Program-made: the position numbers and the translations under genes
Shown here: positions 26,826 to 28,313 of the stretch, in pieces
How the letters are laid out: each line of letters starts with the position of its first letter
Position numbering within the stretch: the first letter of the stretch is position 1
Notes under the pieces: generated by a model
Database searches by the model: none
The model's input: only the letters and a program-made list of their open reading frames with translations
What the model was told of the DNA's origin: nothing
Assembly: GCF_041914305.1 (NCBI RefSeq)
Contig: NZ_JAYSDQ010000026.1
Span: 17,944 to 81,943 of the forward strand
Direction of reading: 5' to 3'
DNA: 64,000 bases
Source: Ideonella sp.
Lineage (GTDB): Bacteria > Pseudomonadota > Gammaproteobacteria > Burkholderiales > Burkholderiaceae_C

Positions 26826-28313
26826 ATGAAGCTCCAGCTCCGCTCCCGCCGCACACCGGCCCGCGTGGCCCGCACCGCACCGCGGCGCGTGGTCGCGCCC
26901 GAGACCGCTGAACAGAACCGTCAGGCCGTGGCCCATGCGCTGGGCCACGCGGTGCAACCCAAACTCGTGCTCGGCCGCACCGACGACCCGCAGGAAGCCC
27001 AGGCCGACCGCGTGGCCGCGCAGGTGATGGGTGCGGCCGTGCCCGAGCGCGCGGCGCCTTCGCCCGAGCGCGTGCAGCGCGAGTGCAAGGATTGCGAGGA
27101 AGAGCAGCGCAAGAAGAAGCCCGAGCCTGACCCACTGACCGTGCAGCGGCAGGCGACCGATGCCTCGCCCGCGGCCGATGCCGGCGTGGTGCCTGCGCAG
27201 GTGGCCTCGGGCATCGGCAAAGCGCGCCAGGCCGGCAGCCCGATGCCGCCGGGCGAACGCGGCTTCTTCGAACCTCGCTTCGGCGCGGACTTCGGCCAGG
27301 TTCGTGTCCACGCCGACACCGACAGCGCGCAACTCGCGCAGTCCATCCATGCCCGGGCCTTCACCGTGGGCCAGCACATCTTCTTCGGTGCGGGCGAATA
27401 CCAGCCCGGCCTCGATGGCGGCCGCCGCCTGATGGCGCATGAACTCACCCACACGTTGCAGCAAGGCGGTGGCGATGCACGCCTGCAGCGCACGCCAGAG
27501 TCCGACCTGAACGACATGGACATCGCGGCGGAGCGCGAATACAACAAGGGCGGAGCCCCCAAGGCGGTCAAAGGCGCGCCGCCACCCGGCTGCCCGCCGG
27601 GCTTCTGCGACCCGTATCCGCATGAGAAATACGCGCGCTACCAACTCGCGAAGCAGCGCGGCCCGCTGCTGCTGGGCATCGCGGCGGCCGTCAATTCCAG
27701 AGTTGCCAAGCTCTGGGCCCAGCACCTGAGCGGGGGCTCGCCGCCGCAGGATCTGACCGGCGAGTTCGGCGCCGATTTCTCGGCCTCGCCCTCCACCACG
27801 AAGACCTCCGCGTTCCTGATGGATGCACTTCGCAAGCAGCTGAAGCTCTCCCCGCCGCCGGTCAGCGCGGCCAACCCGGTCTGGGTCGGGGCCTTGAAGT
27901 CGTTGATCGCGCCAGCCATCGCCGAACTCGACGACCCCAACGGCGCCAACCAGATGAACTTCAACCATCCGCGCGATATCCCGGGCAACCTGGCGGGTGG
28001 CATCGGCAAGGACCAGGCGGCGAACAAGATCGGCGCCCAGCCCTCGCCCTTCGACGACCAGCGGCTCGCCGACGGCGTGGTGACCGTGGTCCGCGATCCG
28101 AAATCGGGCCAGCTGAGTGTGTTCCCGGTCATCAACTACACCGTGCGCGACACGATCGACCTGTGCCCGGGCGACTGCGGCACGGCCCTCGAATCGATCG
28201 CGACCGTTCCCATCTCGCAGTTCGAAGCGACCGGCATCGCCGGCGACGTGCCCTACACCGTTCGCTTCTCGGTCGCGCCGGCGATGTTCACGCTGCCGGG
28301 CAAGAAGCCCTGA
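26826..28313 (+). CDS. DUF4157 (eCIS core domain) protein with uncharacterised C-terminal domain
   Basis: QPKLVLG..D..E..ADRVA, CKDCEEE, FFEPRFGADFGQVRVH, ARAFTVGQHIFFG, HELTH. Confidence 0.88.
   Translation: MKLQLRSRRTPARVARTAPRRVVAPETAEQNRQAVAHALGHAVQPKLVLGRTDDPQEAQADRVAAQVMGAAVPERAAPSPERVQRECKDCEEEQRKKKPEPDPLTVQRQATDASPAADAGVVPAQVASGIGKARQAGSPMPPGERGFFEPRFGADFGQVRVHADTDSAQLAQSIHARAFTVGQHIFFGAGEYQPGLDGGRRLMAHELTHTLQQGGGDARLQRTPESDLNDMDIAAEREYNKGGAPKAVKGAPPPGCPPGFCDPYPHEKYARYQLAKQRGPLLLGIAAAVNSRVAKLWAQHLSGGSPPQDLTGEFGADFSASPSTTKTSAFLMDALRKQLKLSPPPVSAANPVWVGALKSLIAPAIAELDDPNGANQMNFNHPRDIPGNLAGGIGKDQAANKIGAQPSPFDDQRLADGVVTVVRDPKSGQLSVFPVINYTVRDTIDLCPGDCGTALESIATVPISQFEATGIAGDVPYTVRFSVAPAMFTLPGKKP

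What the first reader, a model, noticed from the sequence alone, without database searches (positions are those of the whole stretch)
27490..28313. Unrecognised ~270-aa C-terminal domain on the first DUF4157 protein: candidate new effector
Seen: after HELTH..LQR the protein continues into a domain I cannot assign, containing CPPGFCDPY, NIPGNLAGGIG-like DIPGNLAGGIG and DTIDLCPGDCG motifs. Known: the region after DUF4157 is the variable toxin slot in eCIS cargo proteins. Inference: a new toxin or effector family.
Basis: partly seen in the sequence, partly recalled or inferred. Interest (0 to 1): 0.66.

Follow-up and report, generated by a model that had tools for sequence, protein, structure and literature searches.

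The report
Conserved cell-wall-linked eCIS cargo domain
The unassigned 274-residue tail of this injection-system cargo protein is a real, un-named but widespread and highly conserved protein domain that most likely attacks the bacterial cell envelope, so it is a new effector family and not a one-off variable toxin.

Summary
Gene 26826-28313 (+) encodes a 495-aa protein with a DUF4157/eCIS_core domain (aa 139-216, HELTH) and a 274-aa C-terminal domain (CTD, aa 222-495). The CTD matches nothing in Pfam, NCBIfam, PHROGs or PDB sequences. All three quoted motifs are present.

The CTD is not a variable slot. It defines a family of at least 458 clusters at 50% identity, found in 10 or more bacterial phyla and one archaeon. 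It sits C-terminal to DUF4157, usually inside eCIS loci, and is better conserved than the sheath or spike (40-60% identity across phyla).

AlphaFold gives a confident model (pLDDT 93). The only significant PDB match is the Bacteroides fragilis T6SS effector BtpeA CTD (E 1.3e-4, TM 0.32). Colicin M is a weak second.

About 15% of relatives carry SH3b, OmpA, PG_binding_1 or LysM modules, or a YkuD domain. Three co-varying cysteine pairs suggest disulfides. D411, R413, D445, E467 and D474 are invariant and no histidine is conserved. No immunity gene is conserved.

Best reading (about 0.55): a tube-lumen cargo enzyme that acts on peptidoglycan or its precursors outside the cytoplasm. The chemistry is unknown. 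It is a new member of a known kind.

The parts
26826..28313 (+). Whole gene: 495-aa DUF4157 protein (end includes the stop codon). It is the first of two consecutive DUF4157 genes at the 3' end of the eCIS operon.
26826..27239 (+). N-terminal leader (aa 1-138). It is Arg/Ala/Pro/Glu-rich and has no signal peptide or TM segment. It carries the 'QPKLxLGxxDDPxExxADRVAAQVM' motif shared with relatives, and two [VL]QR motifs (aa 83-85 and 106-108). It is the presumed loading sequence.
   Evidence: The analogy is to AlgoCIS Cgo1/Cgo2, where the NTD is required for loading.
27240..27473 (+). DUF4157 / eCIS_core domain (aa 139-216), with HELTH (HExxH) at 27438-27452.
   Evidence: (PF13699, E 3.1e-32)
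27483..27491 (+). LQR (aa 220-222), a conserved [VILM]QR boundary motif between DUF4157 and the C-terminal domain. R222 is at least 90% conserved.
27489..28310 (+). The C-terminal domain itself (aa 222-495, 274 aa). It has a helical N-terminal half and a beta-rich C-terminal half, and belongs to an un-named conserved family.
27591..27617 (+). CPPGFCDPY (aa 256-264). C256 and C261 are partners of C451 and C447.
27975..28007 (+). DIPGNLAGGIG (aa 384-394), a conserved Gly-rich loop (G387, A390 and G391 at least 95% conserved).
28056..28064 (+). D411-Q-R413. D411 and R413 are invariant in 238 of 238 family members.
28149..28181 (+). DTIDLCPGDCG (aa 442-452), the signature motif. D442 is D in 236 of 238. 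T443, D445 and C447 are invariant.
28215..28256 (+). SQFEATGIAGDVPY (aa 464-477), the second signature motif. S464, E467 and D474 are invariant.
28359..32369 (+). The next gene: a 1336-aa second DUF4157 protein with a C-terminal Endonuclea_NS_2-like domain. Its DUF4157 part is 43% identical to that of the first protein. The intergenic gap is 45 nt with no room for an immunity gene.
6839..26796 (+). Upstream eCIS structural operon: sheath 6839-8401, Pvc16_N 10833-11915, AAA+ ATPase 11926-13299, VgrG-like OB spike 15756-16574, P2_I-like baseplate 19533-23009, and DUF6519/DUF4815 fibre-like protein 23305-26796.

Best explanation
[quoted passage not shown] Its N-terminal leader would direct it into the tube lumen, a step inferred by analogy with AlgoCIS. 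The DUF4157 zincin-like module is an accessory, possibly a processing module. The 274-aa C-terminal domain would be the effector.

That domain is a disulfide-stabilised enzyme of a fold not yet described in the libraries searched. It most likely acts on the bacterial cell envelope, either on peptidoglycan or on its lipid-linked precursor, in the oxidising periplasm or wall compartment. Catalysis would be by an invariant acidic/polar cluster (D411, R413, D442, D445, E467, D474, S464), not by a Cys-His or His-metal site.

The domain has no signal peptide and appears to need disulfides, so it would be inert in the producer's cytoplasm. That would explain why no immunity gene accompanies it. Its target is universal, which would explain why it is conserved across phyla and does not diversify.

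Shown here: the domain boundaries, the family, its conservation, its genomic linkage to eCIS, its fusion partners, the cysteine covariation, and the confident fold with one significant PDB neighbour. Inferred: loading into the particle, the site of action, enzymatic activity and the substrate.
For: 1. eCIS cargo architecture and context. PF13699 lies at aa 139-216, and the gene is the first of two DUF4157 genes after the fibre gene of a complete eCIS operon. The 495-aa and 1336-aa pair mirrors AlgoCIS Cgo1 (498 aa) and Cgo2 (1228 aa), which are tube-lumen cargo (PMC8894135; bioRxiv 10.64898/2026.05.27.728243).

2. Linkage to eCIS. About 30 of 44 species loci have AAA, sheath, VgrG, baseplate or DUF6519 genes on the same strand within 10 kb. 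All 12 apparently orphan genomes still carry a sheath gene, against 3 of 14 control genomes.

3. Cell-wall link.
- 46 of 266 members have C-terminal tails of at least 45 aa, most of them SH3b-like by eye. Pfam SH3_3 matched four of the members scanned; only P0155 passed the curated cut-off, and P0128, P0124 and L047 were below it.
- OmpA was found in P0176, P0236 and L043. L044's tail looks OmpA-like by eye but was not scanned.
- PG_binding_1 was found in P0167, P0178, P0253 and L039.
- LysM was found in P0198.
- A YkuD L,D-transpeptidase domain lies in the same polypeptide in P0146.
- In L058 the next gene is DUF4157-YkuD.

4. Extracytoplasmic design. C250/C400 co-occur in 181 sequences, are both absent in 46, and are discordant in 11 (Fisher p 5e-37). 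C256/C451 give 229, 7 and 2. C261/C447 are always both present. Lost pairs are replaced by hydrophobic, non-ligand residues. That fits disulfides better than a zinc site.

5. Enzyme-like conservation. D411, R413, T443, D445, T460, S464, E467 and D474 are invariant in 238 sequences, and the charged core of that set (D411, R413, D442, D445, S464, E467, D474) persists in members at 30-40% identity.

6. Fold. The model has pLDDT 93.3. Its only significant PDB neighbour is an antibacterial T6SS effector domain crystallised with its immunity protein (9jdi_A, BtpeA CTD, E 1.3e-4, probability 0.99). Next is colicin M, a periplasm-acting lipid II hydrolase by established knowledge, at E 0.16.

7. Constant target. 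The CTD is more conserved than sheath, VgrG and DUF4157 in the same loci.

8. Immunity. No conserved small downstream ORF was found. The next gene is usually another DUF4157 protein.
Against: No biochemical or toxicity data exist for any member, as far as the held literature shows.

The BtpeA match has a low TM-score (0.32, rmsd 11.7 A), and BtpeA's activity could not be read here because the paper is not held. A model of the beta half alone (pLDDT 82) matched neither BtpeA nor colicin M.

No known peptidoglycan-hydrolase fold or family matches. The wall-binding fusions occur in only about 15% of members, mostly Acidobacteriota- and Actinomycetota-like sequences, and not in the window's own protein.

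Disulfides are inferred from covariation only.

A cargo that travels in the tube lumen could equally be delivered to the cytoplasm. Cgo1's toxicity in E. coli was not changed by a Tat tag, but Cgo1's CTD is probably a different domain.
Confidence: 0.55

Rival explanations
1. A specific sub-case of the best explanation: a colicin M / BtpeA-like enzyme that cleaves the lipid-linked peptidoglycan precursor (lipid II or undecaprenyl-pyrophosphate-linked intermediates). The DTIDxC motif would play the role of colicin M's DxYD(x5)HR metal-binding motif.
For: Foldseek ranks BtpeA CTD first (E 1.3e-4, probability 0.99) and colicin M second and third (3da4 E 0.16, 2xtq E 0.29), with alignments spanning 248 and 211 columns. 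The signature has a DxxD spacing at the end of a beta strand, as in colicin M's D226-x-Y-D229 (from my own knowledge of colicin M, not tested here). Invariant D, D, E and R residues with no conserved His or Cys nucleophile fit a metal-dependent phosphoesterase.
Against: PF14859 (Colicin_M) does not match at E<=1. The Tyr, His and Arg of the colicin M motif are absent from DTIDLCPGDCG. The colicin M probability is only 0.2 and all TM-scores are at or below 0.32. The beta-half model found neither protein. Wall-binding modules such as SH3b, LysM and OmpA are typical of enzymes acting on polymerised peptidoglycan, not on lipid II. A colicin M profile could not be built, because no PF14859 hit was found in 401 genomes.
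Confidence: 0.15
2. A producer-side lysin or autolysis factor. The domain would degrade the producer's own wall to release particles. In Actinomycetota with cytoplasmic CIS it would execute CIS-mediated cell death, and would not intoxicate another cell.
For: eCIS are released by lysis (PMC8213781). The window has no obvious holin or endolysin genes among the ORFs scanned. The domain is near-core and sits inside the structural operon in several lineages. Actinobacterial and Chloroflexota copies lack the HExxH domain and carry wall-anchoring modules. No immunity gene is present.
Against: The protein keeps the leader plus DUF4157 layout of proteins shown to be tube-lumen cargo. It has no signal peptide, no TM segment (maximum KD19 of 1.22) and no partner holin that would let it reach its own wall. 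A domain that depends on disulfides would be inactive until the cell is already breached.
Confidence: 0.15
3. A non-enzymatic domain. It could be a binding or structural module, for example a lumen plug, a chaperone-like partner for the second cargo, or an inhibitor that binds an envelope protein.
For: No catalytic family could be assigned. Its high conservation and fixed position resemble those of structural genes. Non-enzymatic T6SS effectors that bind envelope proteins are cited in the literature seen here (reference 49 in PMC13035841).
Against: Nine polar or charged residues are invariant or nearly so across 238 sequences down to about 30% identity, which is more typical of an active site than of a scaffold. 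Fusion to several different wall-targeting modules and to a YkuD enzyme is the pattern of modular wall-acting enzymes.
Confidence: 0.1

Closest known systems
AlgoCIS cargo Cgo1 (ALPR1_12695) with Cgo2, Algoriphagus machipongonensis (PMC8894135; bioRxiv 10.64898/2026.05.27.728243)
   Same: Both have a disordered N-terminal leader, a central DUF4157 domain and a folded C-terminal domain. The sizes are almost identical (498 vs 495 aa). Each is followed by a much longer second DUF4157 protein (1228 vs 1336 aa), and each lies in an eCIS operon with an AAA+ ATPase.
   Different: Cgo1's CTD was described as containing a metalloprotease motif, and the window's CTD has none. Algoriphagus was not among the 44 species found by the family's signature patterns. 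The CTDs are therefore probably unrelated. Loading and toxicity were shown for Cgo1 and not for this protein.
eCIS-associated toxins (EATs) with N-terminal DUF4157 (Geller et al. 2021, PMC8213781; Danov et al. 2024, PMC11297309)
   Same: [quoted passage not shown] Some EATs target the wall: EAT6 is L,D-transpeptidase-like and EAT10 is a peptidoglycan hydrolase that is 10^4-fold more toxic in the periplasm.
   Different: EAT C-terminal domains are described as diverse. This one is a single family kept at 40-60% identity across phyla and is often placed inside the core operon. Whether any tested EAT (for example EAT7, function unknown) belongs to it could not be determined, because no sequences are held.
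BtpeA (Bfe5) C-terminal domain, Bacteroides fragilis GA3 T6SS effector, PDB 9JDI (Li et al. 2025, Cell Host Microbe 33:1901; not held)
   Same: It is the only significant structural neighbour (Foldseek E 1.3e-4, probability 0.99, 248 aligned columns). Both are C-terminal domains of proteins delivered by contractile injection machines.
   Different: Sequence identity is 14%, with no sequence-level match and a TM-score of 0.32. BtpeA rides on a T6SS spike with an adaptor and has a cognate immunity protein (BtpiA). This family rides on DUF4157 and has no conserved immunity gene. BtpeA's activity could not be verified here.
Colicin M family (PF14859), lipid II-degrading bacteriocins
   Same: A weak fold resemblance (E 0.16), a two-part layout of helical and beta-rich halves, a periplasmic site of action, and acidic catalytic residues in a DxxD arrangement.
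   Different: There is no Pfam match. The catalytic motif DxYDx5HR is not conserved. Colicin M has its own receptor-binding and translocation domains and an immunity protein.
Tlde1-type L,D-transpeptidase-like T6SS/eCIS effectors (YkuD fold)
   Same: They are found fused to this CTD (P0146) or encoded next to it (L058). They are wall-directed antibacterial effectors on the same DUF4157 carrier.
   Different: The fold and catalytic residues are unrelated (Cys-His in YkuD). This is a neighbour, not a relative.

Membership tests
eCIS DUF4157 cargo / EAT class | PF13699 (eCIS_core/DUF4157) domain with HExxH, N-terminal to the effector domain | tested here: met
   E 3.1e-32, aa 139-216; HELTH at aa 205
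eCIS DUF4157 cargo / EAT class | Encoded in or next to an eCIS operon (sheath, tube, spike, baseplate, AAA+ ATPase) | tested here: met
   sheath, Pvc16_N, AAA, VgrG-like, P2_I baseplate and DUF6519 fibre lie upstream on the same strand. The same linkage holds in about 30 of 44 related loci.
eCIS DUF4157 cargo / EAT class | Disordered N-terminal loading sequence | tested here: inconclusive
   No disorder predictor was run. Aa 1-138 are Arg/Ala/Pro/Glu-rich, poorly alignable between relatives and have no hydrophobic segment, which fits the feature but does not show it.
eCIS DUF4157 cargo / EAT class | Physically present in the tube lumen and released on contraction; toxic on delivery | not testable with these tools
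   Needs mass spectrometry or cryo-ET of particles and toxicity assays.
Colicin M family (PF14859) | Match to the Colicin_M profile | tested here: not met
   no family at E<=1 for the 274-aa domain
Colicin M family (PF14859) | Catalytic motif DxYD(x5)HR | tested here: not met
   The family signature is D-T-[IV]-D-L-C-P-G-[DN]-C-G. Only the DxxD spacing is shared, and no Tyr, His or Arg follows. The colicin M motif is quoted from my own knowledge.
Colicin M family (PF14859) | Shared fold | tested here: inconclusive
   3da4 E 0.16, probability 0.20, TM 0.25.: no hit with the beta-half model.
BtpeA-CTD-like T6SS effector domain (PDB 9JDI) | Shared fold | tested here: inconclusive
   E 1.3e-4 and probability 0.99, but TM 0.32 and rmsd 11.7 A. 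The hit was lost with the truncated model.
BtpeA-CTD-like T6SS effector domain (PDB 9JDI) | Detectable sequence relationship | tested here: not met
   neither the sequence nor the profile search of PDB chains finds 9JDI.
BtpeA-CTD-like T6SS effector domain (PDB 9JDI) | Adjacent cognate immunity gene | tested here: not met
   There is a 45-nt gap to the next gene. No small ORF is conserved downstream across loci.
Known peptidoglycan hydrolase families (lysozyme/SLT, NlpC/P60, amidases, M23, YkuD) | Profile or fold match to one of these families | tested here: not met
   no profile match.: none appears among the Foldseek PDB hits. No conserved His, so a Cys-His or His-metal site is unlikely.
Polymorphic toxin domain on Rhs/PAAR/T6SS carriers | The same domain found on non-DUF4157 polymorphic-toxin carriers | tested here: not met
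   The longest of the 150 best representatives is 959 aa. The 20 family members and 6 locus-encoded relatives that were scanned carry only DUF4157 and/or wall-binding modules or YkuD. The weaker 308 hits were not listed, so absence is not proven.

The most novel reading that the evidence does not exclude
This is a previously undescribed enzyme fold that serves as the standard, near-core antibacterial warhead of a large share of environmental eCIS, across at least 10 bacterial phyla and Methanosarcinales. It would be delivered unfolded through the tube, freed from its carrier by DUF4157 cleavage at the conserved [VILM]QR sites that flank that domain, and switched on only by disulfide formation in the target's periplasm. 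That design would need no immunity protein. It would imply that many eCIS of unknown target are primarily anti-bacterial, cell-wall-directed weapons.
Probability: 0.2. Interest if true: 0.75.

Novelty: new member of a known kind. Interest (0 to 1): 0.52.

Why it matters
According to Danov et al. 2024, most predicted eCIS toxins are DUF4157 proteins with no annotated second domain (983 of 1130). What eCIS inject, and into whom, is largely unknown.

This analysis picks out one large, sharply conserved family from that unannotated mass and defines its boundaries, signature motifs and invariant residues. It also gives convergent comparative evidence (wall-binding fusions, disulfide covariation, YkuD partners) that the domain works on the bacterial envelope.

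If that is confirmed, three things would follow. It would add a new cell-wall-active enzyme fold. It would argue that a broad set of environmental eCIS target bacteria. It would also give a natural example of an immunity-free effector that is kept harmless by the redox compartment it sits in. The family merits a Pfam entry whatever its function turns out to be.

Tried and rejected
1. Curated libraries gave nothing for the CTD: Pfam and NCBIfam at E<=1, PHROGs at E<=0.1, and PDB sequences by phmmer and by profile.

2. A colicin M profile for an hhalign test could not be built. PF14859 was searched in 401 genomes of the window's class and 14 control genomes, and nothing matched.

3. Fold assignment could not be sharpened. 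A second AlphaFold model of the beta half only (aa 343-495) reached pLDDT 82, with low confidence around the signature motif, probably because its disulfide partners were cut away. Foldseek on this model found nothing significant, neither BtpeA nor colicin M. This test is inconclusive and does not support the colicin M reading.

4. The viral structure library (BFVD) gave only a marginal tail-protein hit (E 1.2e-3, TM 0.27).

5. tblastn against 72,556 plasmids and 50,697 phage records found no match.

6. BtpeA's function could not be established. Li et al. 2025 is not held, and the papers that cite it give only delivery details.

7. Whether EAT7 or EAT6 of Geller et al. belong to the family could not be determined. 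The supplements hold gene ids and organisms but no sequences.

8. An immunity gene was sought by clustering the ORFs downstream of the homologues. Only antisense shadows and further DUF4157 genes recur.

9. A Cys4 zinc site formed by C256, C261, C447 and C451 was considered and rejected. C256 and C451 are lost together and replaced by Ala, Gly, Asp or Asn at 256 and by Leu, Phe or Trp at 451, while C261 and C447 stay.

10. A pore-forming or membrane-inserting toxin was considered and rejected, because there is no hydrophobic segment (maximum KD19 of 1.22).

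Full report
**1. What is in the sequence**

The ORF listing shows a long open frame at 25212-28313 (+). The biologically sensible start is ATG 26826. It lies 29 nt after the stop of the 1163-aa upstream gene and is preceded by GGAAGGA. The product is 495 aa.

Pfam places eCIS_core (PF13699, the former DUF4157) at aa 139-216 with E 3.1e-32. HELTH is at aa 205-209 and LQR at aa 220-222.

The 274 residues from 27489 to 28310 have no match in Pfam or NCBIfam at E<=1, in PHROGs at E<=0.1, or in the sequences of PDB chains at E<=1.

**2. Genomic context**

The gene closes a complete extracellular contractile injection system operon on the same strand:
- sheath, 6839-8401
- Pvc16_N protein, 10833-11915
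- AAA+ ATPase, 11926-13299
- VgrG-like OB-fold spike, 15756-16574
- P2_I-like baseplate protein, 19533-23009
- DUF6519/DUF4815 fibre-like protein, 23305-26796

Forty-five nucleotides downstream starts a second DUF4157 protein of 1336 aa with a C-terminal Endonuclea_NS_2-like domain. Its DUF4157 part is 43% identical to that of the first protein.

The pair of 495 and 1336 aa reproduces the layout of the two experimentally studied AlgoCIS cargo proteins, Cgo1 (498 aa) and Cgo2 (1228 aa). Those proteins fill the tube lumen, and their disordered N-terminal part, not DUF4157, is needed for loading (PMC8894135; bioRxiv 10.64898/2026.05.27.728243).

The genome holds a single copy of the C-terminal domain.

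**3. The domain is a large, strongly conserved family and not a variable slot**

A word-indexed search restricted to aa 222-495 found 210 proteins. Most are 48-63% identical over more than 90% of the domain, and nearly all carry PF13699. The few named sources are Methanosarcinales, Sphingobacteriales, Pedobacter, Mycolicibacterium and Nitrospirae.

An exhaustive HMMER scan of 1.84 billion cluster representatives found 458 clusters at E<=1e-3 and 145 at E<=1e-30. The match always lies at or near the C-terminus.

A scan of one genome per species with the two signature peptides (DT[IV]DLCPG[DN] and EATGI[SA]GD[VI]) confirmed 44 species. They fall in Pseudomonadota, Nitrospirota, Acidobacteriota, Actinomycetota, Bacteroidota, Cyanobacteriota, Planctomycetota, Desulfobacterota, Fibrobacterota and Chloroflexota.

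Within any one phylum the domain is rare. Only the window's own genome was positive among 401 evenly drawn genomes of its phylum. Three of 401 were positive in Bacteroidota. Each of six positive genomes tested has exactly one copy.

Between the window and related loci the domain is 40-60% identical. In the same loci the sheath is 37-44% identical over its length, VgrG 33-40% and the DUF4157-containing N-terminal part 33-47%. It is therefore the best conserved segment of these loci.

**4. Linkage to eCIS**

In about 30 of the 44 species loci, tblastn with the window's structural proteins finds AAA+, sheath, VgrG, baseplate or DUF6519 genes on the same strand within 10 kb.

Two placements recur. 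In one the gene lies at the 3' end after the fibre gene, as in the window (L013, L016, L028, L033, L040, L041). In the other it lies directly after the AAA+ ATPase and before the spike and baseplate genes (L005, L007, L009, L017, L019, and Pedobacter/Hufsiella).

Twelve genomes in which the gene looked orphaned all contain a contractile sheath gene elsewhere. The same profile rings in 3 of 14 control genomes.

The gene downstream is most often another DUF4157 protein. No small conserved ORF that could be an immunity gene was found.

**5. Carriers and fusion partners**

Of 255 family proteins, 186 have HExxH upstream of the domain.

The divergent actinobacterial and Chloroflexota copies (L039, L043-L048) lack the HExxH domain. 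They keep the leader motif 'LQRSAGNxAV' typical of DUF4157 proteins.

No Rhs, PAAR or other polymorphic-toxin carrier was seen, and the longest representative listed is 959 aa.

What does recur is a set of cell-wall-binding modules after the domain. Forty-six of 266 members have tails of at least 45 aa, and most of these are SH3b-like by eye. Pfam confirms:
- SH3_3 in P0155 above the curated cut-off, and in P0128, P0124 and L047 below it
- OmpA in P0176, P0236 and L043
- PG_binding_1 in P0167, P0178, P0253 and L039
- LysM in P0198
- a YkuD L,D-transpeptidase domain between DUF4157 and the CTD in P0146

In a distant Bacteroidota locus the order is AAA+, then DUF4157-CTD, then DUF4157-YkuD.

Such modules are the usual companions of enzymes that work on peptidoglycan. 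This is the strongest functional clue obtained.

**6. Residue conservation**

An hmmalign of 238 near-full-length domains gives these invariant residues: D411, R413, T443, D445, C261, C447, T460, S464, E467 and D474. D442 is D in 236 of 238. These residues persist in the most distant members. No histidine is conserved, which argues against Cys-His peptidases and His-metal sites.

Six cysteine columns behave as three pairs:
- C250/C400 are present together in 181 sequences, absent together in 46 and discordant in 11 (Fisher p 4.7e-37).
- C256/C451 give 229, 7 and 2 (p 4.6e-12).
- C261/C447 are always both present.

When C256 and C451 are lost they are replaced by A/W, A/F, A/L, G/L, D/L or N/L. 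That fits a replaced disulfide better than a zinc site.

The window's protein is one of the 46 that lack the C250/C400 pair. The p-values ignore relatedness of the sequences, and the model coordinates could not be inspected, so the disulfides are an inference.

The protein has no signal peptide and no hydrophobic segment (maximum 19-residue Kyte-Doolittle mean of 1.22).

**7. Structure**

With a 51-sequence alignment, AlphaFold2 gives mean pLDDT 93.3 and pTM 0.88. The model has a helical N-terminal half (helices at domain residues 46-120) followed by a beta-rich half.

Foldseek against 350,542 PDB chains returns one significant match, 9jdi_A. This is the C-terminal domain of the Bacteroides fragilis T6SS effector BtpeA, crystallised with its immunity protein. 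The match has E 1.3e-4, probability 0.99, 248 aligned columns and 14% identity, but a TM-score of 0.32 and rmsd of 11.7 A. Colicin M follows at E 0.16 and 0.29.

The viral structure library gives only a marginal phage tail protein.

The paper describing BtpeA (Li et al. 2025, Cell Host Microbe 33:1901) is not held. The papers that cite it say only that BtpeA (Bfe5) and BtaeB are co-secreted through an adaptor. BtpeA's activity is therefore not used as evidence here.

To test the colicin M lead I modelled the beta half alone (pLDDT 82). It matched nothing significant. Its signature region was poorly predicted, probably because its cysteine partners were removed, so the test is inconclusive.

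The colicin M Pfam profile does not match the domain. The colicin M catalytic motif is not conserved beyond a DxxD spacing.

The fold should be regarded as essentially unassigned, with one credible neighbour that is itself an injected antibacterial effector.

**8. Interpretation**

The architecture and context make this a Cgo1-type eCIS cargo, with the C-terminal domain as the working part.

The wall-binding fusions, the YkuD partners, the disulfide pattern, the enzyme-like invariant acidic cluster and the fold neighbour together point to an enzyme that acts on the bacterial envelope outside the cytoplasm.

Three features fit together under this reading: the lack of an immunity gene, the lack of an export signal and the apparent dependence on disulfides. 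The protein would be harmless in the producer's reducing cytoplasm and would become active only after delivery. A universal substrate would explain why the domain stays conserved while most injected toxins diversify.

I put this reading at about 0.55. The specific lipid II (colicin M-like) version is at about 0.15, a producer-lysis role at about 0.15 and a non-enzymatic role at about 0.1. None of the functional steps (loading, delivery, activity, substrate) has been shown.

**9. Comparison with what is known, and novelty**

DUF4157 proteins as eCIS cargo and toxins are established (PMC8213781, PMC11297309, PMC8894135). Danov et al. note that 983 of 1130 predicted DUF4157 toxins have no second annotated domain.

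This domain is one family from that unannotated set. In the libraries and papers available here it has no name and no described function. It is therefore a new member of a known kind (a new effector domain on a known carrier), not a new kind of system.

Two things are unusual for the class. It is conserved across phyla, and in several lineages it occupies a near-core position in the operon.

**10. Limits**

Only the best 150 of the 458 representatives were visible, so rare alternative carriers cannot be excluded. The organism's identity is masked. No toxicity, localisation or activity data exist.

Noticed in passing
window 27072-27080, 27141-27149, 27483-27491; the same positions in 171 relatives: The tripeptide [VILM]QR occurs 2.0 times per pre-CTD region against 0.22 in shuffled sequences. 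It sits at fixed places: about 100-120 aa before HExxH (just upstream of DUF4157) and 10-20 aa after it (the DUF4157/CTD boundary). The window has VQR at aa 83, VQR at aa 106 and LQR at aa 220. These could be processing sites for the DUF4157 zincin that would free the effector. This is speculative.
   Followed up: partly
window 27573-27575 and 28023-28025 (aa 250 and 400): The window's protein lacks both members of the C250/C400 cysteine pair (G250 and N400), as do 46 of 238 relatives. It keeps the other two pairs.
   Followed up: yes
L058:1-3639 (a Bacteroidota genome, G1104): A compact cargo block: AAA+ ATPase, then DUF4157 with a divergent copy of this CTD, then DUF4157 with a YkuD L,D-transpeptidase-like domain. 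The CTD is therefore paired with a known type of wall-directed effector.
   Followed up: partly
L039, L043, L044, L045, L047, L048 (Actinomycetota), L046 (Thermomicrobiales): These divergent copies (29-41% identity) have lost the HExxH DUF4157 domain but keep the 'LQRSAGNxAV' leader. They end in PG_binding_1, OmpA-like or SH3b-like modules. No CIS genes lie within 10 kb, although each genome has a sheath gene elsewhere.
   Followed up: partly
L042:10001-10751 (Nitrococcus mobilis MAG): This copy is 67% identical over its first part and then runs into frameshifts and stop codons. It is either a pseudogene or an assembly error.
   Followed up: no
window 23305-26796: The 1163-aa DUF6519/DUF4815 fibre-like protein contains an Ala/Lys/Pro/Thr low-complexity linker (…AEKPAAAKTAAKPAAKSAKAAKATAKATT…) in the middle. 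Relatives of this protein precede the CTD gene in several other loci (L013, L016, L028, L033, L040, L041).
   Followed up: no
window 32382-33533 (-): A GH5 cellulase-family gene (PF00150, E 4e-19) lies convergent to the end of the eCIS operon, immediately after the second DUF4157 gene.
   Followed up: no
window 38250-43511 (+): A 1753-aa open frame with no Pfam match at E<=1e-3. In a 70% G+C genome it may or may not be a real gene.
   Followed up: no
BFVD A0A8S5UBA3: A 668-aa 'tail protein' of an uncultured caudovirus is the best viral structural neighbour of the CTD (E 1.2e-3, probability 0.82, TM 0.27). If real, this would fit a virion-associated wall-acting domain.
   Followed up: no
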